Shown here: positions 7,436 to 23,948 of the stretch, piece by piece | Numbering within the stretch: the first letter of the stretch is position 1 | Layout: the number at the start of each line of letters is the position of its first letter | From: Pseudomonadota bacterium | GTDB lineage: Bacteria; Desulfobacterota; Desulfobacteria; Desulfobacterales; RPRI01 | Direction of reading: 5' to 3' | DNA length: 32,649 nucleotides | Assembly: GCA_043825875.1 (NCBI GenBank) | Contig: JBDRRF010000012.1 | Coordinates: 1-32,649 of the forward strand | Notes under the pieces: model-generated | Database searches by the model: none | The model's input: the letters and a program-made list of their open reading frames with translations, nothing else | Told to the model about the DNA's origin: nothing | Program-made: the position numbers and the translations under genes

Positions 7436-7491
7436 TATCCAATTATGATTATTATTGATGTAAAAATAATATTGTACGGAGGTTAAATATA

Positions 7492-9339
7492 TTGAATCCA
7501 TTTTATAAGAACCTGGCTTTATGGATAGTCATTTCTCTGATGGTTGTTATGTTGATCAGCCTTTTCAATCAACGCCAACTTGGGGAAAACAGCTTAATTT
7601 ATTCCAAATTTATTGCTATGGCTGAAAATGAACAAATCAGGGAAGTTACTATACAGGGCCAGGATCTTTATGTTATTGATACAAATAATAATAAATATAA
7701 GGTTTATGCTCCACTAGATAGTGACCTCATTAAAATTTTAAGGGAAAAAGGCGTATCAATAACAGCCAAACCCCCCGCCGATAATCCCTGGTATATGTCT
7801 CTTCTAGTTTCCTGGCTCCCGATGATAATTCTTATCGGAGTATGGATATTCTTTATGCGTCAAATGCAGTCCGGTGGTGGAAAAGCCATGTCTTTCGGCA
7901 AAAGCCGAGCGCGACTTATGTCTGATACATCAGAAAAAGTTACCTTCGAGGATGTTGCCGGGATAGAAGAAGCAAAAGAAGAGCTTAGCGAAATAGTGGA
8001 ATTTTTAAAGGAACCAAAAAAATATACCCGCCTTGGTGGTCGTATACCAAAAGGCGTGCTTCTTATGGGCCCTCCGGGTACAGGCAAAACACTTCTTGCG
8101 CGTGCTATTGCCGGAGAAGCCGGAGTTCCATTTTTCAGCATAAGCGGTTCTGATTTTGTGGAAATGTTTGTGGGTGTCGGGGCCTCCCGGGTAAGAGATC
8201 TTTTTATCCAGGGGAAAAAGAATGCACCGTGCATAATATTTATAGATGAAATAGATGCTGTGGGCAGACACCGCGGAGCAGGTCTTGGAGGAGGTCATGA
8301 TGAAAGAGAACAAACCTTAAACCAGCTTCTTGTTGAGATGGATGGTTTTGAATCCAATGAAGGTGTTATCCTTATTTCTGCTACAAACCGTCCTGATGTT
8401 CTTGACCCGGCGCTTTTAAGGCCAGGCCGTTTCGACCGTCAGGTTGTAGTATCTTTACCTGATATAAAGGGTCGTGAAAAAATACTTCAGGTACATATGA
8501 AAAAATCTCCTATTGCACCCGATGTAACTCCGATTATTCTTGCAAAGGGAACTCCGGGATTTTCCGGGGCAGATCTTGAAAACCTTGTTAATGAAGCGGC
8601 TTTGTATGCTGCAAAAAGAAACAAAGATAAGGTCGAAATGATTGACTTTGAAGATGCCAAAGACAAGGTTTATATGGGGCTTGAGAGAAAGTCAAAGGTC
8701 ATAAAAGATGAAGACAAGAAAACTACGGCATATCACGAAGGTGGCCATGCAATTGTGGCCCGACTCCTGCCAGACACTGATCAGATAAACAAGATAACAA
8801 TAATACCCAGAGGACGTGCTGCAGGCGCAACCTGGTTTCTTCCCGAAGAAAGAGATTTTAAATACAAAGACCAGCTTGAAAGCCAGCTTGCCATCGCTTT
8901 CGGAGGGCGCGCCGCAGAAGAGATTGTTTTCGGCCGATTAAGCACAGGTGCATCCAATGATATAAAGCAGGCAACCGAAATCGCACAACTGATGGTCCGT
9001 GCATGGGGAATGAGCGATGAAATAGGCCCACTCTCTTATGCAAAAAATGAAGAGCAAATATTTCTCGGACGTGAAATTTCCCAGCACAGAGATTATTCAG
9101 AGGAAACGGCAAGAAGAATTGATGCCGAAATAAGCAAACTTATAAAAAAATCATATTCGACAGCGAAACAAATCCTTAATGATCATATGGATATTCTGCA
9201 CAAGCTTGCTGAAATACTGATTGAAAAAGAAACGGTTATGGGAAAGGAACTGGATGAGCTTATTATTTCCATGAAACCGGGTGTTATTCTGTCTTCCTAC
9301 GATTCAGAGGAAGATAGTAACAAACCGCCTGATGCATAA
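7492..9339 (+). CDS. ftsH: ATP-dependent zinc metalloprotease FtsH
   Basis: Two N-terminal TMs, Walker [28 protein letters not shown], zinc motif HEGGH. TTG start with GGAGG RBS. Confidence 0.98.
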
Positions 9340-10220: not shown

Positions 10221-10985
10221 ATGTTACTTGTAATCGATGTCGGGAATACAAACATTGTCATGGGAATTTATGACGGCGATAAACTTCTGAGGGACTGGCG
10301 TATCCGCACAGAACATAATACAACCGAAGATGAGTTTAATGTGCTTGCAAATGGCCTTTTTACAACAGGCGGTATAAATCCGGCAGATATCGAAAAAACA
10401 ATAATATCATCTGTTGTTCCGCCTCTTGTAATAATTCTGGATTCTTTCTGCCGTAAATATCTTGGCCATGCGCCTTACTGGGTGGATGCCAAATCCTACC
10501 CTGATATGCCGATTATGAGTGGCAACCCTTCCGAAGTCGGAGCCGACAGGATAGTAAATGCCGTAGGTGCATATGAAAGATATAAAACAAGCCTGATTAT
10601 TATTGATTTTGGAACAGCCACAACCTTTGATGCAATATCTGAAAAGGGGGAATACCTTGGAGGTTCAATAAGTCCTGGAATAATGATAGCAGCGGAAGCG
10701 CTTTTCCAAAAAGCCTCCAAACTGCCGCGGGTTGAAATATTTGTTCCTCCGGATAAAGTTATAGGCACAGATACTGCCAGCTGTATGAAATCAGGAATTA
10801 TTTTCGGCTATGCAGGACTTATTGATGGTGTGGTTACCAGAATGAAAGCCGAAATGGGAACAAATCCAAAGGTAATTGCTACAGGAGGTCTTGCACGTCT
10901 AATGTTTAATGTAGCAACAACTATAGAAGTCGTTGAACCCGGCCTTACGCTGGAAGGGTTAAGGATAATAAGTATGAGGATCTGA
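10221..10985 (+). CDS. coaX: Type III pantothenate kinase
   Basis: LVIDVGNTN, SSVVP, VGADR, IDFGTATTFD, YLGGSISPG, ATGG, LTLEGL. Confidence 0.95.
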   Translation: MLLVIDVGNTNIVMGIYDGDKLLRDWRIRTEHNTTEDEFNVLANGLFTTGGINPADIEKTIISSVVPPLVIILDSFCRKYLGHAPYWVDAKSYPDMPIMSGNPSEVGADRIVNAVGAYERYKTSLIIIDFGTATTFDAISEKGEYLGGSISPGIMIAAEALFQKASKLPRVEIFVPPDKVIGTDTASCMKSGIIFGYAGLIDGVVTRMKAEMGTNPKVIATGGLARLMFNVATTIEVVEPGLTLEGLRIISMRI

Positions 10986-11005
10986 AGAAAAGGCTTTTAC
11001 TTGAT

Positions 11006-11034
11006 CGCTTGAATCCTGGAATCCCCTGGCCATT
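11006..11034 (+). repeat. Solo remnant of the octamer-repeat arm found at 21369-21397
   Basis: CGCTTGAATCCTGGA matches CACTTGAATCCTGGA (21369-21383) at 14/15 nt. Lies in a convergent intergenic region. Confidence 0.4.
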
Positions 11035-11084
11035 AACTTTAGCTGATGGAAGTTGATTTGCTTATTACAATATAGAGTTACGAC

Positions 11085-12020
11085 TCAAAGCTTTTTATCT
11101 TTTATATATCCTATAAAACCTTTAATGCTGTTTGTAAGAAATATCATCTCCCTTTCTTTAACGGCAGAGTCCATATCAAAATAACCTGAAAGAAAAGGAT
11201 CTTTTCTTAAAAGTGCCTCAGCACACCGGGAAATCAAATCACCATCAACTGATTTTTCAACTTCGCCAGTTATAACTTTTTTCCATAAACCAAGCTGATC
11301 CTGATGCTGTTTCAGCATAGTTATAGCATTTTCTTCTAAACTAAGATGTCCATAACAAATCTTAGATGGGTTCTTTGATATAAGATCGTCAATACTCTTA
11401 TAAGCAAGTTCATAAAAAAATTTGGGTGGTGTCGCAGGACGCATACAAAAGCCGCCTGAAGGCAGGGAATAATATACTCCTCCGGCTTCTCCGGCAAAGA
11501 GATAATCTTTGTATATATAACTTACATGGTGGATGGCATGTCCCGGAGTTATAACCGGAGTAATTGAATCATGTTTAAATTCTTGCGCACCAACAAGGCG
11601 GTCAATAGGAACCGGGCTAATCGGACCGTATGCTTTGGCAATGTCACCAAGAGTCTTTATCGTGCCTTTCCATAATCTTTCAGGATCAGCAAGATGCGGT
11701 ATTCCATCCTTATGGCAAATAATAGGAGTACCGGCAAAACGACTGGCTATTTCTGCTGCTGCACCTGCATGATCTACATGAATATGTGTTAAGAATATAT
11801 AATCAAGATGTGTTACCCCGGCTTCTTTAAGGGCATCAAGCAAAGCCTGTGCTGTTGAAGATGACCCGACATCAACTATAAAAGTTATATCTCCTTTATA
11901 AAGCCATGTCCCAATAAAATTTTCAAAACCTGCCGCAACAGGAGGAAGTGTTATTAAAAATAAATTTTCGTTAAATTTTGTAATTTTATAATTTAAATCC
12001 AATTCCGTCATTACCATCAA
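11085..12020 (-). CDS. MBL-fold metallo-hydrolase
   Basis: THIHVDHAG (HxHxDH), TPGHAIHH, LFAGE, CYGH. Confidence 0.9.
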   Translation of the reverse strand: MMVMTELDLNYKITKFNENLFLITLPPVAAGFENFIGTWLYKGDITFIVDVGSSSTAQALLDALKEAGVTHLDYIFLTHIHVDHAGAAAEIASRFAGTPIICHKDGIPHLADPERLWKGTIKTLGDIAKAYGPISPVPIDRLVGAQEFKHDSITPVITPGHAIHHVSYIYKDYLFAGEAGGVYYSLPSGGFCMRPATPPKFFYELAYKSIDDLISKNPSKICYGHLSLEENAITMLKQHQDQLGLWKKVITGEVEKSVDGDLISRCAEALLRKDPFLSGYFDMDSAVKEREMIFLTNSIKGFIGYIKDKKL

Positions 12021-12100
12021 TCTCCAGCTTATTTTCTCTAAAAAACCAACTAAATTACTATATCCTTGCGAATATATAAACTTAACACCTTATGAGTTTT

Positions 12101-12952
12101 TTAAAATACTATACCTGCATAACCCACAAAACTGTCTGAAGGGCTTTTATCATAGCTTGTTTGGTAAGTAATTAGTTTTGCCTTTGTTGCACCAAGCTCT
12201 TTGGCAGTACTTATAGCAGTTGCCGCAGCTCCGGAACAGCAGGCGTTTTCATTTAGCAATGCTTCTTCAATTACTTTCTCAGGATTCATTTCAAGCATTG
12301 CATCTATTGCTTTTTTATCATTTTCGTTTTTCACCCAATTAAGGGCTTTTTGTCCGTTTCCCTTGGAGACAAAACCATAATTAACACCATAATGAGTAAG
12401 ATCAGTTGATCCCAATACCGCAACTTTAAGGCCAAGGGCAGTTGCAATTTTGACGGCATCCTTTCCTATTTCAAAAGATGCTTTAACCGGCGGAACCCCC
12501 ATGGGAACAATTTTAACATCTTTAAAAAAGTATTTTATAAACGGAAGCTGAAGCTCTATTGTGTTATCCTGGGTAAATCTTTGAGCGGTTTCAATTTGGA
12601 AAGAATATATTTTTGAAAGTTCTTCAGCTATTTCCTCCTGGATTTTTATATCACCAAAAGGTGTTTCCCAGGCCCCCTCTTTCATAAGGTAATTCGGAGA
12701 GCCTTTGTGAAGGTGCATTCCAAATATAAAAATAACATCAGGCTGTTGTTCTTCAGAAAGTATTTTAATAACATTGCATGCAATGCTTCCGGAAAAATAC
12801 CAGCCTGCGTGAGGAACAATACCTCCTGTTTTTTTTATTCCGGACAAATCCTGAATTTTTGCTTCACTAATAAATGATTTAATTTGCCTTTCACATTCTT
12901 TAGCGCCTGACGGATACCAGCTTCCGGCAAAAACAGCTTTTCTTGTTTTCAT
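12101..12952 (-). CDS. amrB: AmmeMemoRadiSam system protein B (MEMO1 family)
   Basis: RKAVFAGSWYP, VPHAGWYFSG, WETPFG, IELQLPF, STDLTHYG, SFVGYAGIVF. Confidence 0.9.
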   Translation of the reverse strand: MKTRKAVFAGSWYPSGAKECERQIKSFISEAKIQDLSGIKKTGGIVPHAGWYFSGSIACNVIKILSEEQQPDVIFIFGMHLHKGSPNYLMKEGAWETPFGDIKIQEEIAEELSKIYSFQIETAQRFTQDNTIELQLPFIKYFFKDVKIVPMGVPPVKASFEIGKDAVKIATALGLKVAVLGSTDLTHYGVNYGFVSKGNGQKALNWVKNENDKKAIDAMLEMNPEKVIEEALLNENACCSGAAATAISTAKELGATKAKLITYQTSYDKSPSDSFVGYAGIVF

Positions 12953-13038
12953 GATAAATCTCCAATATGAATAAAAAGCAAATATACGCTCCCTCTAACA
13001 TATTCTTTAGCCAGTCTGTTTCCGATTTTATTTTTCAT

Positions 13039-13067
13039 AAATTAACAGTCACATTGGTGTTTGTCAA
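13039..13067 (-). promoter_or_regulatory. Candidate sigma70 promoter for amrB
   Basis: Minus strand TTGACA-N17-TAATTT, about 87 nt upstream of the amrB start. Confidence 0.4.
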
Positions 13068-13243
13068 ATTATGGATCTTAGCAATTTATCAAATATTATT
13101 AGGGAAGCCATTTTTAAAATTTAAAAATTATTGCAAAAAACTGCCAATAGATTTATATAATTTAGAATTATTTTAAATAAAAGTTGAGAGTTAAGAGTCT
13201 TAGGTTTCAATGTAGGTTTGGTTATTATTCTTTGGAGAACATT

Positions 13244-16200
13244 ATGAATTATTCCAATAATCAGCAAGTAAAGTATTTCGATTACATTAACAGATTTCTT
13301 TCAATCTCTGATTTGGACACACTCTTAGATACTATTTGCAAGGAAACGCCTGCACTGATGAACGCCAAAGATTGCTCAATCTTTCTTATTCCAACCCTGT
13401 TAAAAGAAAAACAAAGTTCAGATATGTTGAATAAGCAAGACGGGACATCTGTCCTGGCTTCTTCTCTAAAAACAAACTATGTGGTTTTGGCTAAGACAAC
13501 GCGAGATAATTTTAAGCCGTATGTAGGTAAAGCCTATTATAGTGAAGGCTTCGGACTGACCGGATACATATTCAAAACCGGAAAATCACTAAACATAAAT
13601 GACATGGGAGATCATAATGAGCTGAATAATATTGATCCCGAATTACATTGGAAAGATGCCTACAGAGGTAGTGAAGAGCGTTTCAGGGGGAAAAGGAAGA
13701 AACCTTATATAGGCGTACCCCTTAAAATAGGACAGAAAATTCTTGGAGTAATACGGCTTGGTGAACCTCTTGTTGGTGATTCCTTTTTTCCCATGGCTCT
13801 GTCCGGATTAGAATCTTTTGCGGCAATATTAGCAAATGTGATTGAAAGAATCAGCTCTTTGCAGCATCTCAAGTCATCTATTGACAGTCTCATTATGATT
13901 GGATCATTAAGGGTCAAACAAACCATATATGATGCTATCGTTAAAGAAGCCGCACTGTTGATTGGTGCCGAAAATTGTGAACTTTACCTCCTCGACAGAT
14001 ATGGAGAACAGATAGTTCTTAAGGCTGCAACGGAAGGATATCTGAAGCAATTACTTGAATCACAAAATACAAAAGCTTATCAACGAGGCGTCGGTTTAAC
14101 CGGATGGATATTCAAAACAGGGAAACCATTGTATATTCATAATGTTGAAGATTATACCCGATTACAAACACTATCGGACCAGGATTTGGAAAATGTTTCA
14201 AATGGTACGGACATAAATGATGAGACAGAAAGAAAAATTAAATGGGGTGATATTGATGGACAATATAAGAGCAGAGCTACCCCATACCCGCGCTTTATTG
14301 GTGTACCGGTTAAATCAGAGATGGGTGAGGTAATAGGTGTATTAAGGGCTTCATCACCGAAAGAAAAGGAAGTATTTTTGCACAAGCAGGATATGATGTT
14401 ATTGCAGAATATTGCAGATAATATATCCGTTATATTTTTCAATGAGCGGCGTGAAAGCCTTTATAATACTCTGATTGAAATAGGTACAATATATGATCGT
14501 GATAAACTATTTAAATACGTAGCAGATAGGGTTCCTCACCTGATTTGGGGAAGAGGGTGTTCAATATTTTTAAATGACCCAAGGTCGAATCTCCTCAATT
14601 TGGCATACAGTAGTAGTAAGTCATTAATAGGGACAGATAAAAAGTTAATGAGCATGACGTATAAATATGGGGAAGGAAAAACCGGATTAGCTGCTGAGAT
14701 AGGGAGAACGTTGGTAGTCAACTACTATGGCAAAGGAAAACTAATATCAGAAAGAATGAAAGAGGACTTCGAGAAGTATAAACTAATCTCACCTGAAATA
14801 TGCATACCCAGATACATCAGTGATGAAAGTGATGATCACGTGGGAATTGTAAGAATGATGAGAAATGAGTCGGATGATAAGCCTTTTTCTGAACAAGAAA
14901 TCGAAAAGTTCTTTCATTTTTGCGATGACGAACTCTCGTATAGAGAGGGAGGACTTCCATCGCATAAAGGATCACTTTGTGAGACAGGGGAAAAAGGTGA
15001 CTCAAACTCCTTTTTTGCACTACCAATAAAGTTAAAAACAGGGGCAGAGGATCTGTTGGGTGTAATAAGAATTGCACGTACATCCGAATCAGTGAGGTTT
15101 TCCGATCATGATATTGAACTGCTTGAGTCCATTACCGGTAGATTAACGACGGCCCTTGAAATTGAAAGAGCAATGAGCAAGACCCGCGAGAGTCTCAAAA
15201 TTCTAAGCGATATCAACTCAAAAATAAAATATTTTTTTGATACAGGCGAAATTCTTGAAGAAATTTTAAAAGCCGTAACGGAAGGTTTGGGATATGAGTT
15301 TGCAACCATTCAACTCGTTGATGTTGAAAAAAACACTATCTATACGGCAAGGGCCAGGGTCAATCCAAACGTACAAGGTGCAATGGACCCAACTCCATGG
15401 CTCAAAATATCTCATCCATTAAATCCTCCGGAAGGAGAAACTAGAGACATCCATGCATATGTTTTGATGGAAGCAAAAAAAGCCATTGTTGTAAAAGATT
15501 TTGACATCCATTTTGACAGATCAATTTATGAAAAATATGGTCATAAAGATCTTGTGAGGGCATTTGTCCCGATTATCGCTTACGAACCCGAAACAGGAAA
15601 ATCTATTGGCACCTTAGAAGCCGCACATAATATTTTTCATAAAGCCCACATTGACGACCAGGAGCTGGAAATGCTTCAAGCTATAGCCAACCAGGCGGCC
15701 ATCGTCATTGAAAATTATAATCTTCTGCAAAAGAGCCGAATTGATGCCGCCAAAACGTTTCATTCCTTTAAAGGAAAGACAAGTGCGATTAGAGGACAAA
15801 TAGACAACTTGGAAGATTGTCTTAACAAGTCCGGTGGAAAAAATGCCTCAGCTATAATCAATGACCTTAGAAATGCTGCCAAGGCAATAGATAAAATCTG
15901 TAAGCGCCTTATCGATATCTCAACGCCGAAGAGAGCAAAGAGAGAAACAATAAATTTTTCTACGTTGATCAGTGACGTTGTTGCTTTTCGAAGATCCGAC
16001 ATTAATATTGATGGCCCTCACATATCGGATACATTGCCGCTTATTGATCTTGATAAAGAATCACTCAGGGAGGCATTGAATGAGATCATAAATAATAGCA
16101 TTGCGGCGGCGTTGAATCGAAAAAGAAATTGCGTAAATATAACAATAAAGGTGACCTCTGTTACAAATGATATAATATCGCAATTACCTGTTAACACGCC

Positions 16201-16444
16201 TTCTCAGGTTAAAACCCGCTTCAAAAATGGAGGTATAAAAATCCTGATTGAAGATGATGGGCCAGGCATATCTATCCACCATAAACAGCGTATTTGGGAA
16301 TTGGGATTTTCTAAGGTAACAGGAGGAAACGGCATCGGCTTATTTCAGGTGGCACAGATGGTTGAAGACCATAAAGGAATATGCTATGAAGATGGACAAG
16401 TTGACAAGGGTAGCAGGTTTAATATTTTATTCCCGGTTTTATGA
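13244..16444 (+). CDS. Cytoplasmic multi-GAF sensor histidine kinase (about 4 GAF + DHp + HATPase_c)
   Basis: Repeated GAF motifs (CSIFL...GxGLTGxIFKTGK...IGVP...LGVIR), putative H-box FHSFKGKT, N-box EIINNS, G1 EDDGPGI, F/G2 ELGFS..GGNGIGL. No obvious TM. ATG 13244 with a GGAGA RBS is preferred over the TTG at 13184. Confidence 0.88.
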   Translation: MNYSNNQQVKYFDYINRFLSISDLDTLLDTICKETPALMNAKDCSIFLIPTLLKEKQSSDMLNKQDGTSVLASSLKTNYVVLAKTTRDNFKPYVGKAYYSEGFGLTGYIFKTGKSLNINDMGDHNELNNIDPELHWKDAYRGSEERFRGKRKKPYIGVPLKIGQKILGVIRLGEPLVGDSFFPMALSGLESFAAILANVIERISSLQHLKSSIDSLIMIGSLRVKQTIYDAIVKEAALLIGAENCELYLLDRYGEQIVLKAATEGYLKQLLESQNTKAYQRGVGLTGWIFKTGKPLYIHNVEDYTRLQTLSDQDLENVSNGTDINDETERKIKWGDIDGQYKSRATPYPRFIGVPVKSEMGEVIGVLRASSPKEKEVFLHKQDMMLLQNIADNISVIFFNERRESLYNTLIEIGTIYDRDKLFKYVADRVPHLIWGRGCSIFLNDPRSNLLNLAYSSSKSLIGTDKKLMSMTYKYGEGKTGLAAEIGRTLVVNYYGKGKLISERMKEDFEKYKLISPEICIPRYISDESDDHVGIVRMMRNESDDKPFSEQEIEKFFHFCDDELSYREGGLPSHKGSLCETGEKGDSNSFFALPIKLKTGAEDLLGVIRIARTSESVRFSDHDIELLESITGRLTTALEIERAMSKTRESLKILSDINSKIKYFFDTGEILEEILKAVTEGLGYEFATIQLVDVEKNTIYTARARVNPNVQGAMDPTPWLKISHPLNPPEGETRDIHAYVLMEAKKAIVVKDFDIHFDRSIYEKYGHKDLVRAFVPIIAYEPETGKSIGTLEAAHNIFHKAHIDDQELEMLQAIANQAAIVIENYNLLQKSRIDAAKTFHSFKGKTSAIRGQIDNLEDCLNKSGGKNASAIINDLRNAAKAIDKICKRLIDISTPKRAKRETINFSTLISDVVAFRRSDINIDGPHISDTLPLIDLDKESLREALNEIINNSIAAALNRKRNCVNITIKVTSVTNDIISQLPVNTPSQVKTRFKNGGIKILIEDDGPGISIHHKQRIWELGFSKVTGGNGIGLFQVAQMVEDHKGICYEDGQVDKGSRFNILFPVL

Positions 16445-16455
16445 GGAGAATGACT

Positions 16456-17274
16456 ATGCCGCGTATATTGGTTGTCGAAGATGACTCTGATCAATTGCGA
16501 GCTTGTGTTACGCGATTGGAAAGGTCGACTGCAAGACATATAATTGACACAGCTACCAATCCGGAAGAAGCGATTCGCAAGCTGCAAAATAAACAATACG
16601 ATATTGTTATTACGGACTTAAGAATGCCTTCTGACGAATATGAAGGTTTCATGGTAATTCTGGACATAAAACGCAAGGACCCCTTGTTCGAAAGGACCAA
16701 AGTCATAGTTTGGACCGTAGTAGGCGCTCAAAGGACTGAGCAAGATATAGATGCTATAAGACACGCACTCCGCTTAGGTGTCTCTGATTATATTATTAAA
16801 GATTGGGATCGGCATCTCGAATTGCTTGAAAAAACCATAGATAAGATACTATTGCAGTCATCTTCACTGCCACCTAGAGTATGTACTATCAGAGGACAAG
16901 TGTTTTTAGCCTGTCCTTATGATGAACATCACGATCAGATTTGCGCAGAACTGAAAAATTTAGAAAACCAGGTTAATTATGGCTTCGTTCGGGCGGATGG
17001 CTCCTTTCAAGATACATACCTTAAAGAGATCATCACTACACAAATTGCAGAATCTGAATTTGTTGTCGCATTTATAAGTGGATTAAATGGCAATGTCATG
17101 TATGAGCTTGGCCTGGCTCACGGGATGCAAAAAAGGGTTATCATCGTAAAAGATGAAAACACAAACGTGTTGTCAGATCTGGGGGGGATAGTATATATTC
17201 CTTACAAGAAAGATGTGGCATTACAACTTCCCGGCAAGATAATTAAAGCACTTAATGATCTTAGTTGCCACTAG
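16456..17274 (+). CDS. Response regulator: REC domain fused to a nucleoside 2-deoxyribosyltransferase/TIR-like output domain
   Basis: REC motifs ILVVEDD, DIVITDLRMP, WT, DYIIK. C-terminus VFLACPY...RAD...IAESEFVVAF...NGNVMYELGLAHGMQKRVIIV...SDL...YIPY. Start could be 16441 (ATGA overlap with the kinase), 16450 or 16456; GAGGAG at 16443-16448 favours 16456. Confidence 0.82.
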   Translation: MPRILVVEDDSDQLRACVTRLERSTARHIIDTATNPEEAIRKLQNKQYDIVITDLRMPSDEYEGFMVILDIKRKDPLFERTKVIVWTVVGAQRTEQDIDAIRHALRLGVSDYIIKDWDRHLELLEKTIDKILLQSSSLPPRVCTIRGQVFLACPYDEHHDQICAELKNLENQVNYGFVRADGSFQDTYLKEIITTQIAESEFVVAFISGLNGNVMYELGLAHGMQKRVIIVKDENTNVLSDLGGIVYIPYKKDVALQLPGKIIKALNDLSCH

Positions 17275-17328
17275 TTTAAAAATTCTTCTTCTTAATTAGT
17301 TTTGACTTTAGACGTCAGGAGGCCTGAG

Positions 17329-18252
17329 ATGAATACATACATAGGGATTGATCTTGGGGGTACTAAAATAGCTGGTATTCTGGTTGATTCCAAACATGAT
17401 ACAATCTCCGAAGTCACCATGGGTACCGATAACAGAGATGAAACAGCGGTGATTGACTGCGTCAGGTCAGTAATAGATCGTTTGTCAACCGAGAAAACAT
17501 GTTCTTCAAATCATCTAACCGGTATCGGCATAGGAATTGCCGGGCATGTTGATTTTGAGAAAGGGACGGTTATTTACTGCCCCAATCTTCCAATAGAAAA
17601 TCTTAATCTTAAAGCTATTTTACAGAAGGCATATAATATACCTGTATTTATCGAAAATGATGCTAATGCAGCCGCAATTGGTGAGAAGTACTTTGGCCAG
17701 GCGGCGGAAAACGGTAACTTTGTTTGTGTTACCTTAGGAACCGGAATTGGTGCCGGAATTTTTATCAACGGTAAATTATACCGGGGGTCTACTTGTGGGG
17801 CAGGAGAGTTGGGGCATATGATCCTTGATTTTAGTCTTGATGCCCCAGTCTGCGGTTGTGGTAATCGTGGTTGCTTTGAGGCTTTGGTGTCAGGCACAGC
17901 AATTGCTCGCATGGCAGAAACCGTTTTTTCAAAAAAGAATATCACTGCCTATGATGTAGCAAAAATGGCTCAAACCGGAAATTTACAGGCCATTGAAATA
18001 TTCAATCATGCCGCCCGGATTATCGGCATTGGGTTCGCTAATATAGTCAATCTTTTCAATCCTGAAAAAATTATTGTTTCCGGATCATTGGCCCAGGCTG
18101 AAGATCTTTTTTTGAAACAAGCCATAAAAATCATGATGAAACGCACTTTTTCCACTAATGCCAAGTCTGTGGCCGTCGTCAAGTCTTCTCTTGGCAATCG
18201 TGGCGGAGTACTAGGCGCAGCAGCTCTTGCAATTCAACACTGTAATAGATAG
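17329..18252 (+). CDS. ROK family sugar kinase (glucokinase-like)
   Basis: IGIDLGGTK, ENDANAAAIGE, TLGTGIGAG, GELGH, Zn motif CGCGNRGCFE. No N-terminal HTH. ATG 17329 follows AGGAGG. Confidence 0.92.
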   Translation: MNTYIGIDLGGTKIAGILVDSKHDTISEVTMGTDNRDETAVIDCVRSVIDRLSTEKTCSSNHLTGIGIGIAGHVDFEKGTVIYCPNLPIENLNLKAILQKAYNIPVFIENDANAAAIGEKYFGQAAENGNFVCVTLGTGIGAGIFINGKLYRGSTCGAGELGHMILDFSLDAPVCGCGNRGCFEALVSGTAIARMAETVFSKKNITAYDVAKMAQTGNLQAIEIFNHAARIIGIGFANIVNLFNPEKIIVSGSLAQAEDLFLKQAIKIMMKRTFSTNAKSVAVVKSSLGNRGGVLGAAALAIQHCNR

Positions 18253-18397
18253 TAGTTATCTTAGCTACAATAAAATTTAAATGCGCTATAATTAAGTTCA
18301 TTGCATTCTTCGCCAAATTGAAGGTACTAATATAGTGCTGTACTTTTAGTAATGTGCATTTTGCTTCCTTCAGATTTCTAATACTTTTGTTCTCCAA

Positions 18398-18425
18398 TTG
18401 ACATAGCGTTTTCTGTGTTTATTTT
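18398..18425 (+). promoter_or_regulatory. Candidate clpB promoter, TTGACA-N15-TTATTTT
   Basis: TTGACAtagcgttttctgtgtTTATTTT, with the same spacing as the grpE upstream motif. Confidence 0.55.
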
Positions 18426-18509
18426 AATAAAGGCAAATAACTATCCGGTAATAAACAAAAAGAGATTAACAAAAGCAGTTTAAATATAATATAAAATCAG
18501 GAGGCATTT

Positions 18510-21092
18510 ATGCGTTTTGATAAATTTACGATAAAATCACAAGAGGCCATAGGCAATGCGCAATCATTGGCCTCAAAAAATAATAACCAGCAGATAGAAC
18601 CCGAACATATGCTTTCTGCAATGTTAAGCGAGCAGGAAGGTATCGCAAGAGCAGTGTTAAACAAGCTTGGTGCTTCGCCTGATTCTGTTGCAAAAGAAGT
18701 TGAATCTTCGATTGAAAGATTTCCTAAAGTCAGGGGGGCCGGAGAAGTAAGTATTTCACAGCGTTTAAAAAATGTGCTTGATTCGGCTTTTGCAGAAGCC
18801 GATAAAATGAAAGATGAATATGTGAGTACCGAACATGTTCTTCTTGCCATATCTGATGAACGTGATGGTGAAGCATCCAAGATATTGAAACGCTATAATA
18901 TTACACGCGATTCGATATTAAAGGTTCTAGTGGATGTTCGCGGAAACCAGAGAATAACAGACCCAAATCCTGAAGAAAAGTACCAGGCATTAGATAAATA
19001 CAGCAGGGATCTTACAGACCTTGCAAGGCTTGGAAAGCTTGATCCGGTAATAGGAAGGGATGACGAAATAAGACGTATTGTGCAGGTTCTTTCCAGAAGA
19101 ACAAAAAACAACCCCGTTCTTATAGGAGAGCCGGGAGTTGGAAAAACCGCAATTGTAGAAGGACTGGCCAGAAGAATTGTGGAAGGAGATGTTCCCGAAA
19201 CTTTAAAAAACAGGCGGCTTGTTTCTCTTGATATGGGCGCATTGATAGCAGGCGCAAAATACAGGGGGGAATTTGAAGACCGCTTAAAAGCAGTTTTAAA
19301 GGAAGTAGAAAAAGCCGAGGGTGATATAATTCTGTTTATAGACGAGTTGCACACTCTTGTGGGAGCAGGAGCTGCAGAAGGATCAATGGATGCATCCAAT
19401 ATGTTAAAACCGGCACTTGCAAGAGGTACTCTTCGCTGTGTGGGAGCAACAACCTTAAATGAATACAGAAAATACATAGAAAAAGATGCCGCTCTTGAAA
19501 GAAGATTTCAGCCGGTAATGGTAAATGAACCAAGCGTTGAAGACACTATTTCAATTCTGCGCGGACTTAAGGAAAAATACGAAGTACATCATGGTGTAAG
19601 GATTATGGATTCGGCCATTATTGCAGCAGCCACTCTTTCCCACCGCTATATTTCAGACAGGTTCTTGCCTGATAAGGCGATAGATTTGATCGATGAATGC
19701 GCATCCAAATTAAGGATAGAAATTGACAGTATGCCTTCTGAAATTGATGAAATTCAGCGCAGAATCACTCAATATGAAATTGAGCGGGTAGCCTTAAAGA
19801 AGGAATCGGACCAGTCATCCAAAGACCGGCTTACAAAAATCGAAGCAGAGCTTTCCGATCTTAATGAAGAAATTAATGTAATGAAAGCGCACTGGAATAA
19901 GGAAAAAGAGCTTATACAGGTTATAAGAAAAATAAAAGAAGAAATCGAACATCTGGGAACAGCAGAACAGCAGGCAGAAAGAGAAGGCAATCTTGCCAAA
20001 GTTGCCGAGTTAAGATACGGAAAAGCCGCTGATCTTAGAAAACGTCTTGATGATGCGAATAAAAATCTTGAGTTGTTGCAAAACGAAAGAAAGATGCTCA
20101 AGGAAGAAGTGGATGACGAAGATATCGCAGAAGTCATATCCAAATGGACGGGAATTCCGGTCAGAAAAATGCTTGAGAGTGAAAGGGAAAAACTTGTAAG
20201 AATGGAAGATCGTCTGGCATTAAGAGTTATAGGCCAGGATGAAGCACTTGAGGCGGTTTCAAATGCCGTCAGAAGAGCAAGGTCAGGGATGCAGGACCCA
20301 AACAGACCGATAGGTTCATTTATATTCATGGGCCCCACAGGGGTTGGAAAAACCGAGCTTGCCAAAGCGCTTGCAGAGTTTATTTTTGACAGTGAGCAGG
20401 CAATGGTAAGAATTGATATGTCGGAATATATGGAAAAACATTCTGTATCAAGGCTTATCGGAGCGCCTCCCGGCTATGTTGGTTACGATGAAGGAGGATA
20501 TCTCACAGAAGCGGTCAGAAGAAAACCTTACTCGGTAGTACTTTTTGATGAAATAGAAAAAGCCCACCAGGATGTTTTTAATGTTCTTTTGCAGATTTTG
20601 GATGACGGCAGAATGACGGATGGCCACGGAAGAACCGTAGATTTTAAAAACACCATTATTATAATGACTTCTAATGTCGGAAGCCAGTGGATACAGGAAC
20701 TGGGAATATCAAGACGTGATGAGATGGAAAAAAAGGTTACGGAAGTATTAAAGGCAAGTTTTAAGCCTGAATTCTTAAACAGGATAGATGAAACAATAAT
20801 TTTTCACAACCTTTCGCCGGAACAAATCGGAGAAATAGTAAAAATTCAGATTAAAAAACTTGAGGCAAGGCTTGCTGAAAAAAATATCAACCTTGTTTTA
20901 TCAGAGGATGCCATAAAGCTTATTGTAGATAAAGGCTATGACCCGGTATATGGAGCGCGTCCGTTAAAACGAGCTATCCAGAAATATCTGGAAAACCCTC
21001 TTTCGATAGAAATACTTAAAGGGGAAATCAAAGAGGGAAGCATGGTCAAAGCGGAAGTTTGGGGTGATAATACTATAGTTTTTAATCATTAA
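18510..21092 (+). CDS. clpB: ATP-dependent chaperone ClpB
   Basis: Clp N-domain, two AAA+ modules ([16 protein letters not shown]), AKYRGEFE, long coiled-coil M domain, [24 protein letters not shown]. Confidence 0.98.
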
Positions 21093-21122
21093 GGATCATA
21101 TCCAAAAGAATTGATCCAAATG

Positions 21123-21397
21123 AAGGGTTCAAGGGGTCCAGGGGCCAAGGATTCGAGTGAAATGATTAAAAATTATAAAGCGGTAAGTGTTTGGCAAAAA
21201 CCGTAAAAGCTTTGTTTGCATATGGCTCAGGTTTGTGAATTGGAAACCCAAATGATGATATCTGGTGACTTGGGTTATGTGGGATAAGAGAGGTTTCAGG
21301 AAATAAGAGAGGAGATAGGGGGTGTCGAGAGAAAGCTAAAAGCGATGATCAAATCCCTGGAAAACAAACACTTGAATCCTGGACTCCTTGAACCCTT
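21123..21397. repeat. Inverted arms of degenerate tandem octamers enclosing a decayed gene
   Basis: Left arm AAGGGTTCAAGGGGTCCAGGGGCCAAGGATTCGAGTG (21123-21159). Right arm CACTTGAATCCTGGACTCCTTGAACCCTT (21369-21397). The arms are complementary apart from one extra 8-mer unit and 2 mismatches. Confidence 0.8.
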
Positions 21398-21428
21398 TTT
21401 TCCAATTAATTGGCAGAACCATCATTAA
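21162..21428 (+). pseudogene. Decayed four-helix-bundle protein (23S rRNA IVP/TIGR02436-like)
   Basis: Hand translation: MIKNYKAVSVWQKP*KLCLHMAQVCELETQMMISGDLGYVG*ERFQEIREEIGGVERKLKAMIKSLENKHLNP... Family-like VWQK, ELETQ and DLGY are present, with two in-frame TAA (21204, 21285). The conserved core (QIRRxAVSIPSNIAEG) is missing. Confidence 0.75.
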
Positions 21429-21443
21429 TAACGCAAAATTTTC

Positions 21444-21484
21444 AAACCCCCGGCGAAAATTTATTCGTCGGGGGTTTTCTTTTC
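21444..21484 (+). terminator. Intrinsic terminator-like hairpin overlapping the 3' end of the opposing gene
   Basis: AAACCCCCGGCGAA (21444-21457)/TTCGTCGGGGGTTT (21464-21477) followed by a T-rich tract. Confidence 0.65.
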
Positions 21485-21904
21485 GTTCTCTGTTTTAGGC
21501 AGTATTTCCGACCGGATTTCGGAATAAAGCTTTTGTGTTTCATGCAAAATCCGGTTTTCGGTTTCTTGTTTTGCCTTGTCAAGAATCAAATCGCTTTCAT
21601 GCTTTGCTTCTTTTATGGTTTCAAAAAGTTTTTGTTCCGCTTCTTGTAAGAGATTTTCTCTGGAAGCTTTTAAACCGGATTGGTTTTCATTAATGTTTTT
21701 GTTTATCTCTTTTATCTCACTAATAAGAGTTTCTTTTTGTATCTTAAGATTCTCCAATTCTTCCGAGAGCTTTTTCTTATGGCCTTTCAAAAAATCAATG
21801 AGCGGTTTTGCGGCAAACTTTACAAACAGCAAAAGCAAGATCACAATGTTTGCCAATAGTAAGGCAGAATCTGATAAATATTGCATAATATTGGAATCCA
21901 TCAT
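21461..21904 (-). CDS. ATP synthase F0 subunit b/b'-like protein (orphan)
   Basis: N-terminal TM ending NIVILLLLFVKFAAKPLIDFL, followed by a long charged coiled coil (EAKHESDLILDKAK). 147 aa. Confidence 0.7.
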   Translation of the reverse strand: MMDSNIMQYLSDSALLLANIVILLLLFVKFAAKPLIDFLKGHKKKLSEELENLKIQKETLISEIKEINKNINENQSGLKASRENLLQEAEQKLFETIKEAKHESDLILDKAKQETENRILHETQKLYSEIRSEILPKTENEKKTPDE

Positions 21905-22170: not shown

Positions 22171-23160
22171 ATGTTGACTTCAGCATCTGAAAAACTGAAT
22201 AAATTCTACAGCCATTTTACAGGCAAAGATAATGTGCTGGTTTTAATAAATGCCGATCCCGATGCTATTGCCTGCGCAATGGCGGTTAAAAGACTTTTAT
22301 GGGGAAAGGTAAACAGTGTTACAATTTCAAATATAAATATAATAAAACGCCCTGATAACCTGGCAATGATAAGATTGCTTGGCGTAAATCTTGTACATAT
22401 AAATCAGATAGACGGGAAAAAATATACCCGTTTTGTAATGGTTGATTCACAGCCAAATCATAATGAGGCTTTCTCAAAATTTAAATATAATATCATTATC
22501 GACCATCACCCTGAAACAAATTATGAAGCTGAATTTAAAGATATAAGGCCTCAATATGGCGCAACCGCAAGTATACTTACCGAATATTTAAGAGCTGCAA
22601 AGATAAAACCTGCATATAAGCTTGCAACTGCTTTGTATTATGCCATTAAGATTGATACCAGCGATTTTGAAAGAAAAGCTGTGGTTGAAGATATCAAAGC
22701 TTTTCAGTTTCTTTTCAGACATGCAAATATTAATATTGCCAGAAAAATAGAGCAGGCGGAACTGAGCTTAGGCTTTTTGAAATACTTCAAATACGCTCTT
22801 GAAACCATGAAAAAGCGTAAAGGGAAAATATTTGTTCATGCAGGACAAGTTGTTAATCCGGATATCTGTGTACTTCTGGCAGATTTCTTTATGAAAGTCA
22901 GTTATATAAAATGGAGTATCGTTTCCGGCATATATAATGATGTTCTTGTGGTTATTTTAAGAAACGATGGTTTACGAAAAAATGCAGGCAATGTTGCAAA
23001 AGATGCTTTCGGAAATTTAGGTTCTGCGGGAGGGCATAAAAGCATGGCAAGGGCCGAATTTCCCGTTTCAGCTTTAAAGGATAATCTTGACCTTGCAAAC
23101 GATGAAATGGTTTTAAAGTGGATAATCACCAGGATAGAAAAAAAGCCCCGCAAAAAGTAA
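22171..23160 (+). CDS. DHH family phosphoesterase
   Basis: ADPDA, MVDSQ, IIDHHP, GATASI, IDT, C-terminal DHHA1-like SAGGHKSMA. Confidence 0.9.
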   Translation: MLTSASEKLNKFYSHFTGKDNVLVLINADPDAIACAMAVKRLLWGKVNSVTISNINIIKRPDNLAMIRLLGVNLVHINQIDGKKYTRFVMVDSQPNHNEAFSKFKYNIIIDHHPETNYEAEFKDIRPQYGATASILTEYLRAAKIKPAYKLATALYYAIKIDTSDFERKAVVEDIKAFQFLFRHANINIARKIEQAELSLGFLKYFKYALETMKKRKGKIFVHAGQVVNPDICVLLADFFMKVSYIKWSIVSGIYNDVLVVILRNDGLRKNAGNVAKDAFGNLGSAGGHKSMARAEFPVSALKDNLDLANDEMVLKWIITRIEKKPRKK

Positions 23161-23180
23161 CGGGCTCTTATAATAAAAAG

Positions 23181-23948
23181 ATGTCCGTTACAATACTTGG
23201 TTCCGGAACTTGTGTCCCGTCACTTAAAAGAAGTTCCTGTTCCGTTTTGATTGAAACAGGAAAAATAAAAATTCTCATTGACTGCGGTGCAGGCACTATA
23301 AGAAGGCTTCTTGAAAACGGCACCCAAATATATGACATATCACATATTTTAATAAGTCATTTTCATCCCGACCATACAGGAGAATTAATATCTTTTCTTT
23401 TTGCCAATAAATATCCTGACGGCAGCAGACGCAAAATGCCTTTGTCTATAATCGGTGGGCAAGGGGTATTAAATTTTTATGCCGGACTTAAAGCAGTATT
23501 TGGTAACTGGATAGATCTTATGCCTTGTGTTTTAAATATAATTGAACTTGATACTTATAAAAAAGATATGCGATTAGATGATGCTGTTTTAGAATATACG
23601 CCGGTAGAACACAACGAAGAAAGCCTTGCTTATAAGGTTACCGGAAGCAATGGTTGTAGTATTGTTTATTCGGGTGATACTGATTATTGTGATAACCTGA
23701 TTGAAATTTCTTATAATGCGGATTTATTGATCTGCGAATCTGCTCTTCCGGATGAATTAAAAGTTAATGGGCATTTAACGCCTTCTGTTGCCGGTGAGAT
23801 AGCTGCCAAAGCAAAGGTTAAAAAGCTTATTTTAACTCATTTGTACCCGGAATGTGACAAGGTTGATATCAGGGCTCAATGCAAAAAAACCTATCCCGGC
23901 GATCTTATAATAGCCGAAGATCTGATGAAGGTATATCTGCCGGGGTAA
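23181..23948 (+). CDS. MBL-fold hydrolase, ribonuclease Z/BN-like
   Basis: TILGSG, LIDCG, SHFHPDH, YSGDT, LLICES, GHLT, LILTHLYP. ATG 23181 is preferred over the GTG at 23118, which overlaps the upstream gene. Confidence 0.88.
   Translation: MSVTILGSGTCVPSLKRSSCSVLIETGKIKILIDCGAGTIRRLLENGTQIYDISHILISHFHPDHTGELISFLFANKYPDGSRRKMPLSIIGGQGVLNFYAGLKAVFGNWIDLMPCVLNIIELDTYKKDMRLDDAVLEYTPVEHNEESLAYKVTGSNGCSIVYSGDTDYCDNLIEISYNADLLICESALPDELKVNGHLTPSVAGEIAAKAKVKKLILTHLYPECDKVDIRAQCKKTYPGDLIIAEDLMKVYLPG

What the first reader, a model, noticed from the sequence alone, without database searches (positions are those of the whole stretch)
13244..18252. Three-gene module: multi-GAF kinase, REC-NDT/TIR-like effector and ROK sugar kinase
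Seen: three co-oriented, tightly packed genes (the kinase stop abuts or overlaps the regulator start; 54 nt to the ROK ATG) sit between housekeeping amrB and clpB, bounded by AT-rich spacers. None of the three has a DNA-binding domain. Established: NDT/TIR-like Rossmann folds cleave N-glycosidic bonds of nucleotides or NAD+ and act as effectors in conflict systems (e.g. retron RcaT/Ec86 effectors, Thoeris/CBASS TIRs); ROK enzymes phosphorylate sugars. Inference: a cytoplasmic small-molecule sensor phosphorylates and gates a nucleotide glycosidase, while the ROK kinase makes or removes a sugar-phosphate signal or product. This could be a non-transcriptional two-component metabolic or anti-phage circuit; I know of no description of it.
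Basis: partly seen in the sequence, partly recalled or inferred. Interest (0 to 1): 0.8.

Follow-up and report, generated by a model that had tools for sequence, protein, structure and literature searches.

The report
Kinase-controlled TIR/NDT-like response regulator
A cytoplasmic sensor kinase sits directly in front of a response regulator whose output is not a DNA-binding domain but a small nucleotide- or NAD-cleaving-type domain, and the sugar kinase gene behind them probably just arrived with them.

Summary
Three co-oriented, tightly packed genes lie at 13244-18252: a soluble 4xGAF histidine kinase, a REC + TIR/NDT-like response regulator, and a ROK sugar kinase. None has a DNA-binding domain. 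AT-rich spacers separate them from amrB and clpB.

They form a sharply bounded 5.2-kb block (13179-18381). None of the three genes was found in 16 congeners.

The regulator's C-terminal domain folds confidently as a TIR/DrHyd-type Rossmannoid (MilB Z 14.1, DNPH1 13.4, TIR 13.2). Its family-invariant Glu aligns on the YELG motif of Rcl/DNPH1. Distant relatives of this domain are fused to conflict-system modules (EAD, bacterial Death-like, CHAT, TIR_2). In other proteins the same output cassette is driven by a GAF array instead of REC.

My reading is a two-component pair with an enzymatic, non-transcriptional output.

The three-gene circuit is not supported:
- No biochemical link to ROK was found.
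- No contig was shared between ROK and regulator orthologues.
- The site is not a defence island.

Kinase "orthologues" share only the GAF array, not the transmitter. The REC-TIR-like architecture is already in databases but I found no study of it. This is a new variant of a known kind, of moderate interest.

The parts
12953..13243 (.). AT-rich spacer (GC 0.258) between divergent amrB and the kinase. It is the presumed promoter region. Similarity to the closest congener G008 ends at 13178.
13179..18381 (+). Genome-specific 5.2-kb block holding exactly the three genes. It has no terminal repeats, and its composition is typical of the genome.
   Evidence: blastn breakpoints; repeats; tetranucleotide distance at the 47th percentile of 851 windows
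13244..16444 (+). Soluble sensor histidine kinase of 1066 aa: four GAF domains, a divergent DHp with H-box FHSFKGKTSAI, and an HATPase_c domain.
   Evidence: Pfam GAF 137 bits in 4 stretches, HATPase_c 41 bits; NCBIfam AtoS-like over residues 866-1085 of the 1086-aa ORF translation from TTG 13184, i.e. 846-1065 of the 1066-aa protein; per-region identities
15761..15763 (+). Codon of the presumed phospho-accepting His (residue 840 of the 1066-aa protein). It is the only invariant DHp residue across the aligned kinases.
16456..17274 (+). Response regulator of 272 aa (alternative ATG at 16441): REC (about residues 1-137), a linker, and a TIR/NDT-like output domain (about residues 145-270).
16615..16617 (+). 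Codon of the REC phospho-acceptor Asp54 (272-aa numbering), invariant in 25 of 25 aligned two-domain relatives.
17104..17106 (+). Codon of Glu217 in the motif NGNVMYELG. It is invariant in the family and aligns on the YELG motif of Rcl/DNPH1.
17329..18252 (+). ROK-family sugar kinase of 307 aa, glucokinase-like, with no N-terminal HTH. It is the only ROK in this genome.
18253..18509 (.). AT-rich spacer (GC 0.280) before clpB. Similarity to congeners resumes at 18382-18390.

Best explanation
This is a two-component pair with a non-transcriptional, enzymatic output.

Proposed mechanism:
1. The soluble kinase reads a cytoplasmic small molecule through its four GAF domains.
2. It autophosphorylates on His840 and transfers the phosphoryl group to Asp54 of the regulator.
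3. Phosphorylation of REC drives dimerisation, or relieves inhibition, of the C-terminal TIR/DrHyd(NDT)-like domain.
4. That domain, with Glu217 as catalytic residue, cleaves an N-glycosidic bond of NAD+ or a nucleotide. This depletes the metabolite or produces a signal (growth arrest, stress or conflict response).

The ROK kinase is a co-resident gene, probably co-transcribed, that arrived or was kept with the pair. It most likely acts as an ordinary hexose kinase and not as a part of the circuit.

Shown: gene order and packing, domain content, fold, conserved residues, and restriction of the block to this species.

Inferred: phosphotransfer, activation by dimerisation, the substrate, and the physiological role.
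For: Pairing of kinase and regulator:
- The kinase stop and the regulator start overlap or lie 11 nt apart, with a GGAG before the start.
- REC keeps Asp54 and Lys115 in 25 of 25 aligned relatives.
- The kinase keeps an H-box His and HATPase_c.
- The kinase shares its four GAFs at 43-60% identity with 8 metagenomic kinases, but its DHp at only 12-23% and its CA at 22-34%. Its transmitter is therefore a different module from theirs, as expected if it is matched to this unusual regulator.

Output domain:
- PF10137 scores above its cut-off.
- The AF2 model of the domain has pLDDT 90.7.
- Foldseek's top hits are MilB, DNPH1/Rcl, NDT and TIR-STING at E about 6e-5 to 1e-4.
- VIA-align gives Z 14.1 for MilB (rmsd 2.5 over 125 residues), Z 13.4 for DNPH1 and Z 13.2 for a TIR.
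- A profile of the domain alone hits Rcl/DNPH1 (E 0.002) and Cap12 (E 0.014), with NsNVmYELG laid on SLGVGYELG.
- P20, N77, N79, E83 and G85 (domain numbering) are invariant in both domain alignments (32 sequences, 12). D47 is invariant only in the 32, and F16, V80 and D107 only in the 12. This fits an active site.

Input logic:
- The same tandem output cassette (51% identity over 297 aa, E 8e-100) is headed by REC in P0016 and by a 3xGAF array in P0126. P0046 has 5xGAF plus the cassette.

Theme of the wider family:
- Of the 35 relatives scanned, 19 carry REC, and 10 of those 19 also carry EAD1/7/8, bDLD1, CHAT, TIR_2 or PNP_UDP_1.
- Relatives in Desulfobacterota carry TPR-S.

ROK:
- It has intact ROK motifs in its sequence.
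- It is the only ROK in G000; 0 of 16 congeners have any ROK.
Against: - No phosphotransfer, dimerisation or enzymatic data exist. The complex-prediction tool never ran.
- The PF10137 match covers only profile positions 77-118 of 119. PF05014 is below its cut-off. Sequence matches to solved NDT/TIR proteins are weak (E 0.002 or worse).
- The full-length model has pTM 0.54, so the arrangement of the two domains is not defined.
- In the one distant REC + CT locus with context (L058) there is no kinase within 7 kb. Published analyses describe receiver domains in conflict systems without kinases (PMC7159879 and PMC8195603, passages read).
- Contexts of the 9 full-length regulator orthologues (48-57% identity) could not be fetched, so conservation of the pairing is untested.
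- All three genes share the same presence/absence pattern. That also fits a functional three-gene unit.
Confidence: 0.55

Rival explanations
1. One reading: an integrated three-gene circuit. The ROK kinase makes or removes a sugar or sugar-phosphate that is the signal for the GAF kinase or the product of the glycosidase.
For: - All three genes lie in one sharply bounded block (13179-18381).
- None of the three was found in the 16 congeners searched.
- The gap between regulator and ROK is 54 nt, with no terminator-like site.
- Each gene has its own small set of metagenome-only orthologues.
Against: - No contig length is shared between the 13 ROK orthologue clusters (55-68% identity) and the 10 regulator clusters. 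This includes 4 ROK contigs and 4 regulator contigs of 4 kb or more. It is indirect evidence that depends on a word-based search.
- ROK enzymes act on hexoses and amino-hexoses: the best NCBIfam match is the ROK glucokinase subfamily, 218 bits against a cut-off of 260. NDT/TIR-type cleavage releases ribosyl or deoxyribosyl products (my own knowledge).
- No ROK was seen in any architecture or neighbourhood of the wider family that I looked at.
Confidence: 0.15
2. A dedicated anti-phage abortive-infection system. The GAF kinase senses an infection cue (for example a nucleotide signal) and the phosphorylated regulator depletes NAD+ or nucleotides to stop the cell.
For: - The output domain is weakly related to CBASS TIR effectors, PycTIR and PDC-S35 (E 4e-5 to 3e-3) and to Cap12.
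- Relatives are fused to EAD, Death-like, CHAT and TIR_2 modules of conflict systems.
- L058 lies beside an AEP-TOTE primase and an HD-CE protein.
- The block is an accessory, species-specific insertion.
Against: - The flanks are housekeeping genes: coaX, MBL, amrB, clpB.
- No PADLOC model matches the kinase or ROK.
- There are no mobile-element genes or terminal repeats in or beside the block.
- Its composition is typical of the genome.
- No cyclase, reverse transcriptase or other known defence partner was found in the window.
Confidence: 0.2
3. The C-terminal domain is not an enzyme. It is a nucleotide-binding or oligomerising adaptor, as many TIR and SLOG domains are, so the regulator acts by binding a ligand or a partner protein.
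For: - TIR/DrHyd/SLOG domains include non-catalytic sensors (PMC9503650, passages read).
- In tandem forms the second copy lacks the Glu.
- Sequence matches to solved enzymes are weak.
Against: - A constellation of polar residues (P20, N77, N79, E83, G85) is invariant in both domain alignments, 32 sequences and 12.
- The Glu aligns on the YELG motif of Rcl/DNPH1.
Confidence: 0.15
4. The kinase and the regulator are neighbours but not partners. The receiver works without a kinase, as proposed for receiver domains in conflict systems.
For: - PMC7159879 and PMC8195603 (passages read) describe receiver domains among effectors without histidine kinases.
- L058 has no kinase within 7 kb.
- Kinase orthologues and regulator orthologues share no contig length.
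Against: - The start/stop overlap or 11-nt spacing fits translational coupling.
- REC has a complete acceptor pocket.
- The kinases that lack the regulator also lack this transmitter, which removes the apparent conflict.
Confidence: 0.1

Closest known systems
Response regulators with enzymatic outputs (CheB methylesterase, PleD/WspR GGDEF, RpfG HD-GYP, RssB-type adaptors)
   Same: An N-terminal REC gates a C-terminal non-DNA-binding domain, and the kinase gene is adjacent. REC is intact.
   Different: The output here is a TIR/DrHyd(NDT)-type Rossmannoid domain. My searches found no characterised response regulator with such an output.
PF10137 TIR domains of CBASS Cap12 (TIR-STING) and Pycsar PycTIR effectors
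   Same: The Pfam family scores above its cut-off. The fold is shared (SfSTING TIR Z 12.8). There is a profile match to Cap12 at E 0.014.
   Different: There is no STING or cyclic-nucleotide-binding sensor and no cyclase gene nearby. Activation would come from REC phosphorylation instead of a nucleotide signal. The match covers only the C-terminal third of the Pfam model.
DrHyd/NDT superfamily N-glycosidases (Rcl/DNPH1, MilB, BcmB, nucleoside 2-deoxyribosyltransferases)
   Same: These give the best structural matches (Z 14.1-12.8) and the best sequence-profile match, with the Glu motif aligned.
   Different: PF05014 is below its cut-off (17.5 against 28.8). Identity is 10-21%. The N-x-N-V-x-Y-E-L-G motif replaces the enzymes' S/D-x-G-x-x-(Y/F/W)-E motif. 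The substrate is unknown.
REC + TIR/DrHyd-like effector proteins of NTP-dependent conflict systems (Kaur et al. 2020 eLife, PMC7159879; Kaur et al. 2021 eLife, PMC8195603; passages read)
   Same: The same REC + CT cassette is fused to EAD1/7/8, bDLD1 and CHAT in distant relatives.
   Different: Those receivers are described as occurring without histidine kinases. This protein has no EAD or Death-like adaptor, and it has a kinase gene directly upstream.
Multi-GAF proteins fused directly to the same output cassette (P0046, P0126)
   Same: A GAF array acts as input and a TIR/NDT-like domain as output.
   Different: In those proteins the fusion is direct and the cassette is tandem. Here the two are linked through a kinase-REC phosphorelay. 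The GAFs are only about 20-25% identical.

Membership tests
Two-component system (histidine kinase + response regulator) | Kinase with an H-box His in a DHp domain and an HATPase_c catalytic domain | tested here: met
   HATPase_c 41.1 bits against a cut-off of 26.4. AtoS-like match over residues 866-1085 of the 1086-aa ORF translation. The His is invariant in 9 of 9 aligned kinases. No HisKA Pfam model matched.
Two-component system (histidine kinase + response regulator) | REC domain with the acceptor Asp and the conserved Lys | tested here: met
   PF00072 62.6 bits. D54 and K115 are invariant in 25 of 25 sequences. The model shows a canonical five-unit beta-alpha fold.
Two-component system (histidine kinase + response regulator) | Phosphotransfer between the two proteins | not testable with these tools
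PF10137 CAP12/Pycsar TIR effector family | Pfam score above the gathering threshold | tested here: met
   29.5 against 24.7 bits, but only profile positions 77-118 of 119 are matched.
CBASS / Pycsar systems | A cyclase gene, and a cyclic-nucleotide sensor domain on the effector | tested here: not met
   Pfam found no cyclase or sensor domain in the three proteins or in the 23 other ORFs of the window. PADLOC PycTIR reaches only E 0.0029.
Nucleoside 2-deoxyribosyltransferase / DNPH1 (PF05014, DrHyd) | Pfam score above the gathering threshold | tested here: not met
   17.5 against 28.8 bits.
Nucleoside 2-deoxyribosyltransferase / DNPH1 (PF05014, DrHyd) | The fold, with a Glu at the position of the nucleophile | tested here: met
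   Z 14.1 for MilB and 13.4 for DNPH1. YELG aligns on YELG of Rcl/DNPH1. That this Glu is the nucleophile in Rcl/DNPH1 is recalled, not tested.
ROK sugar kinases | PF00480 over its cut-off, no HTH, and the Zn/ExGH motifs | tested here: met
   249 bits over residues 13-312. The sequence shows CGCGNRGCFE and GELGH; the motif definitions are recalled.
ROK glucokinase subfamily (TIGR00744) | Score over the curated cut-off | tested here: not met
   218.4 against 260.35 bits.
Known anti-phage defence systems (PADLOC-DB v2) | A significant match of the components to a system model, and a defence-island context | tested here: inconclusive
   The kinase and ROK match no model. The regulator gives only weak matches, E 3e-6 (REC part) to 3e-3. 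The neighbours are housekeeping genes.
Retron with NDT-like effector | A reverse transcriptase gene and ncRNA beside the effector | tested here: not met
   No reverse-transcriptase family was found in any of the 26 ORFs scanned. The ncRNA was not searched for.

The most novel reading that the evidence does not exclude
This could be the first example of a histidine-kinase-gated TIR/DrHyd enzyme. In that reading it is a phosphorylation-triggered NAD+/nucleotide glycosidase switch that joins classical two-component signalling to the effector chemistry of bacterial immunity. The four-GAF array would read a nucleotide or metabolite alarm. The co-inherited ROK kinase could belong to the same circuit.
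Probability: 0.2. Interest if true: 0.8.

Novelty: new variant of a known kind. Interest (0 to 1): 0.45.

Why it matters
TIR and NDT-like enzymes are known to be switched on by nucleotide signals, by target recognition or by filament assembly. Control by a phosphorelay has not, as far as my searches reach, been shown.

If the regulator is an Asp-phosphate-gated NADase or nucleotide glycosidase, two things would follow. It would add a new output class to two-component signalling. It would also give a simple, switchable model for how these domains are activated by dimerisation.

The finding also shows the same output cassette wired to REC in some proteins and to GAF arrays in others. That is a clean case of input-domain swapping.

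The sugar-kinase part of the original idea is most likely incidental.

Tried and rejected
Contexts of orthologues:
- The genome-contig scan gave 11 loci. Only L058 covers both domains, at 25% identity.
- The metagenome-contig scan gave 7 loci, all REC-only matches.
The neighbours of the 48-57% regulator orthologues, the kinase relatives and the 55-68% ROK orthologues therefore stay unseen.

Comparing contig lengths across the three orthologue lists, as a stand-in for adjacency, gave no shared length. This is weak negative evidence only, because sources and gene callers differ.

Whole-genome searches:
- 400 Desulfobacterota beyond G000: no two-domain regulator, no kinase relative, and no ROK closer than 42% identity. 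Only a few candidates per genome were scored.
- 301 Planctomycetota: 11 have the C-terminal domain, and only G439 has it fused to REC.
- 301 Acidobacteriota: 5 have the domain, none fused to REC.

Other searches and tests:
- Plasmid collection, tblastn: no match.
- Earlier scan notes by place and by sequence: nothing.
- RNA evidence: no RNA holder is listed. The RNA run that was laid covered only conserved clpB parts.
- The PDB profile search with A3 returned only receiver domains, because the alignment kept the REC columns. I repeated it with the domain-only alignment A5.
- No terminal repeats, tRNA-like ends or transposase mark the block.
- Recent foreign origin was rejected on composition.

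Papers not held: Burroughs et al. 2015 NAR and Burroughs & Aravind 2020 J Bacteriol. What they say on receiver-TIR/DrHyd fusions could bear on novelty.

Full report
**Observation**

- The kinase runs from 13244 to 16444. A GGAG lies six bases before its ATG.
- The kinase stop codon TGA (16442-16444) overlaps an ATG at 16441. It lies 11 nt before the ATG at 16456, which also has a GGAG in front and is the start used by the protein databases.
- The ROK ATG at 17329 lies 54 nt after the regulator's stop.
- The simple scan shows no terminator-like site between these two genes.

Pfam results:

| Protein | Family | Score |
|---|---|---|
| Kinase | GAF | 137 bits, 4 stretches |
| Kinase | HATPase_c | 41 bits |
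| Regulator | REC | 62.6 bits |
| Regulator | PF10137 CAP12-PCTIR_TIR | 29.5 bits (cut-off 24.7) |
| Regulator | PF05014 Nuc_deoxyrib_tr | 17.5 bits (cut-off 28.8, not passed) |
| ROK | PF00480 | 249 bits |

No DNA-binding family passes for any of the three. The neighbours are housekeeping genes: nadB, dnaK, grpE, tilS, ftsH, folP, coaX, an MBL hydrolase and a Memo/AmrB gene on one side; clpB, a DHH protein and haem genes on the other. The two flanking spacers have GC 0.258 and 0.280, against 0.391 for the genome.

**A discrete, species-specific block**

The cluster names of ClpB place the genome among relatives of Desulfobacterium (Desulfobacterota).

Search results for each gene:

| Query | Genomes searched | Result |
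|---|---|---|
| Kinase | 40 relatives (16 congeners, 24 of the same order) | no match at E <= 1e-20 |
| Regulator, full length | the same 40 | REC-level matches only; one separate C-terminal-domain match, in G013 |
| Regulator, C-terminal domain alone | 41 including G000 | matches in 6, all but G000 in other architectures |
| ROK family (PF00480) | 16 congeners | none has any ROK |
| ROK paralogues and PF02685 glucokinase | G000 | this is the only ROK; no PF02685 |

DNA comparison with the closest congener G008 shows similarity ending at 13178 and resuming at 18382. The genome-specific segment is therefore 13179-18381, which is exactly the three genes.

amrB and clpB are not adjacent in the relatives I fetched. 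I took 6 amrB loci, chosen from the 11 congeners that have amrB, and 5 clpB loci; each stretch reached 3-12 kb beyond the gene or to the contig end. In G008 the amrB flank holds HEAT-repeat, CsgG-like and DDE-transposase genes. Some G008 neighbours of both flanks lie together on another G000 contig. The block thus sits at a rearrangement point.

It has no terminal repeats, and its tetranucleotide composition is ordinary (47th percentile of 851 windows). It is therefore not a recent arrival from a compositionally distant donor.

Contigs of two other studies (X2 and X3, possibly one data set filed twice) are 94-97% identical and bridge both the left junction and the kinase/regulator junction. 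They come from a very close strain, so they support the assembly and not evolutionary conservation.

**The regulator**

An exhaustive search of 1.84 billion representatives found 9805 matches, nearly all through REC, and only 2 with E <= 1e-30. The word-indexed search found 9 full-length orthologues at 48-57% identity and one fragment, all from metagenomes.

A looser family of two-domain proteins at 21-30% identity exists. Across 25 aligned sequences these residues are invariant: the acceptor Asp54, Lys115, and in the output domain Pro154, Asp181, Asn213, Glu217 and Gly219.

Evidence on the output domain:

- Modelled alone, it is confident (pLDDT 90.7, pTM 0.86).
- Foldseek ranks MilB CMP N-glycosidase, Rcl/DNPH1, nucleoside 2-deoxyribosyltransferases and TIR-STING first, at E about 6e-5 to 1e-4.
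- VIA-align gives Z 14.1 (MilB, rmsd 2.5 over 125 residues), Z 13.4 (DNPH1), Z 13.2 (an IL-1R-family TIR) and Z 12.8 (SfSTING TIR). These rows are within about one Z unit of each other, so NDT-like and TIR cannot be separated by fold alone.
- A profile of the domain alone (A5, 12 sequences) hits Rcl/DNPH1 best (E 0.002), then Cap12 (E 0.014). The family motif NsNVmYELG is laid on SLGVGYELG of Rcl. I recall that this Glu is the nucleophile of Rcl/DNPH1; that is recollection, not a test.

The domain therefore belongs to the TIR-DrHyd-SLOG clade as defined in PMC9503650 (passages read), near the border between DrHyd and the PF10137 TIRs.

The full-length model folds both domains well (pLDDT 89.5) but leaves their mutual position open (pTM 0.54). 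The linker is of lower confidence.

**What the relatives say**

I scanned 35 relatives with Pfam, chosen from the 150 listed because their matched stretch reached the C-terminal domain. Nineteen carry REC. Ten of those 19 carry a further module:

- EAD7 (3)
- EAD8 (1)
- bDLD1 (1)
- CHAT (3)
- PNP_UDP_1 (1)
- TIR_2 (1)

These are the adaptor and effector modules of the NTP-dependent conflict systems of Kaur et al. (PMC7159879; passages read). That paper also notes receiver domains among effectors but no histidine kinases. PMC8195603 (passages read) says the same.

Two relatives have no REC but a GAF array in front of a tandem copy of the output domain: P0046 with 5 GAF stretches and P0126 with 3. 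The tandem cassette of P0126 is 51% identical over 297 residues (E 8e-100) to that of P0016, which is headed by REC. So the same output is driven by REC in some proteins and directly by GAF arrays in others. In this window the two inputs stand in series.

In the tandem forms the second copy lacks the Glu. This suggests that the domain works as a dimer, as I recall NDT-type enzymes do. That is the basis for proposing activation by phosphorylation-driven dimerisation. It is an inference.

Other contexts:

- The C-terminal domain is fused to TPR-S in two Desulfobacterota relatives.
- In the Planctomycete locus L058 the REC + CT gene lies near an AEP-TOTE primase, an HD-CE protein and a second receiver, with no kinase within 7 kb.
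- The protein atlas holds auto-named clusters of REC + PF10137 proteins (61 and 56 members) and of REC + TIR_2 proteins.

**The kinase**

Eight metagenomic proteins match over their full length at 42-51% identity. A per-region comparison shows where the likeness lies:

| Region | Identity to this kinase |
|---|---|
| Four GAF domains | 43-60% |
| DHp | 12-23% |
| Catalytic (CA) domain | 22-34% |

Only the His is invariant in the H-box (FHSFKGKTSAI here; HQLRN, HEARN or HKMNN in the others). These proteins are therefore relatives of the sensor, not of the transmitter. Because the DHp sets partner choice (established knowledge), they should serve other regulators. This removes the apparent conflict that none of them shares a contig with a regulator orthologue. 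The transmitter has no close paralogue in the genome (best full-length matches 23-26% identity).

**ROK**

The protein has the ROK fold family over its whole length, no HTH, and the Zn and ExGH motifs in its sequence. It is closest to the ROK glucokinase subfamily but below that model's cut-off (218 against 260 bits).

Thirteen orthologue clusters at 55-68% identity, all from metagenomes, are followed by a gap to 39-44%. None of their contig lengths equals that of any regulator or kinase cluster. This includes four ROK contigs and four regulator contigs of 4 kb or more, where a neighbour should have been seen. This is an indirect test of my own and depends on word-based searches.

I know of no chemistry that links a hexose kinase to the ribosyl or deoxyribosyl products of NDT/TIR enzymes. 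The shared presence/absence pattern and the short gap are all that speak for ROK as a part of the system.

**Defence?**

PADLOC gives no match for the kinase or ROK. For the regulator it gives only weak matches, to CBASS TIR effectors, PycTIR and PDC-S35 through the Glu motif region (E 4e-5 to 3e-3). The site holds no other defence or mobile-element genes. The effector theme of the wider family keeps a conflict role possible, but the context here does not favour it.

**Verdict**

The best-supported reading is a two-component pair with an enzymatic TIR/DrHyd-like output, gated by Asp phosphorylation and fed by a cytoplasmic four-GAF sensor (confidence about 0.55). ROK is most likely a passenger.

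Literature searches for such a regulator found nothing beyond the comparative-genomics remarks cited. Two key papers were not held.

It is a new variant of a known kind. The architecture is in databases. What is new here is the adjacent kinase with its own distinct transmitter module and the evidence of input-domain swapping. The function is untested.

Noticed in passing
window 23118-23948 (+): An MBL-fold ORF with a below-cut-off match to Anti-Pycsar Apyc1 (35.6 against 50 bits). It overlaps the end of the DHH ORF at 22171-23160. It is probably an ordinary MBL hydrolase.
   Followed up: no
G000 contig C22:15715-17406 (-), locus L076:6716-8407: A 564-aa ORF with a partial TIR/NDT-like domain at its C-terminus by my domain HMM (E 8.6e-9). 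No Pfam family matches. It is the only other protein in the genome with this domain.
   Followed up: partly
proteins P0016, P0126, P0046 (relatives, not in the window): The output domain occurs as a tandem pair whose second copy lacks the invariant Glu. The same cassette (51% identity over 297 aa) is headed by REC in one protein and by a GAF array in another.
   Followed up: partly
window 13546-13616 and 14086-14156: A 71-nt direct repeat at 70% identity lies inside the kinase gene. It corresponds to the GLTGxIFKTGK stretch of GAF1 and GAF2, a trace of internal duplication.
   Followed up: no
L039 (G008:C84) 7451-8881: The closest congener has a DDE_5 transposase and HEAT-repeat/CsgG-like genes where this genome has the three-gene block. 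The amrB flank is a rearrangement point in the genus.
   Followed up: partly
G016:C11:10491-13072: clpB of this congener reads as two open frames (residues 1-360 and 361-860). It is either a broken gene or an assembly error.
   Followed up: no
window 21461-21904 (-): A 147-aa ORF with no Pfam family, 58% identical to its counterpart in G011, and only faint PADLOC matches.
   Followed up: no
window 10500-21500, runs X1-X3: The exact sequence is held by a groundwater metagenome run. A strain about 95% identical is held by marine/seawater runs of other studies, so the organism is not confined to one habitat.
   Followed up: partly
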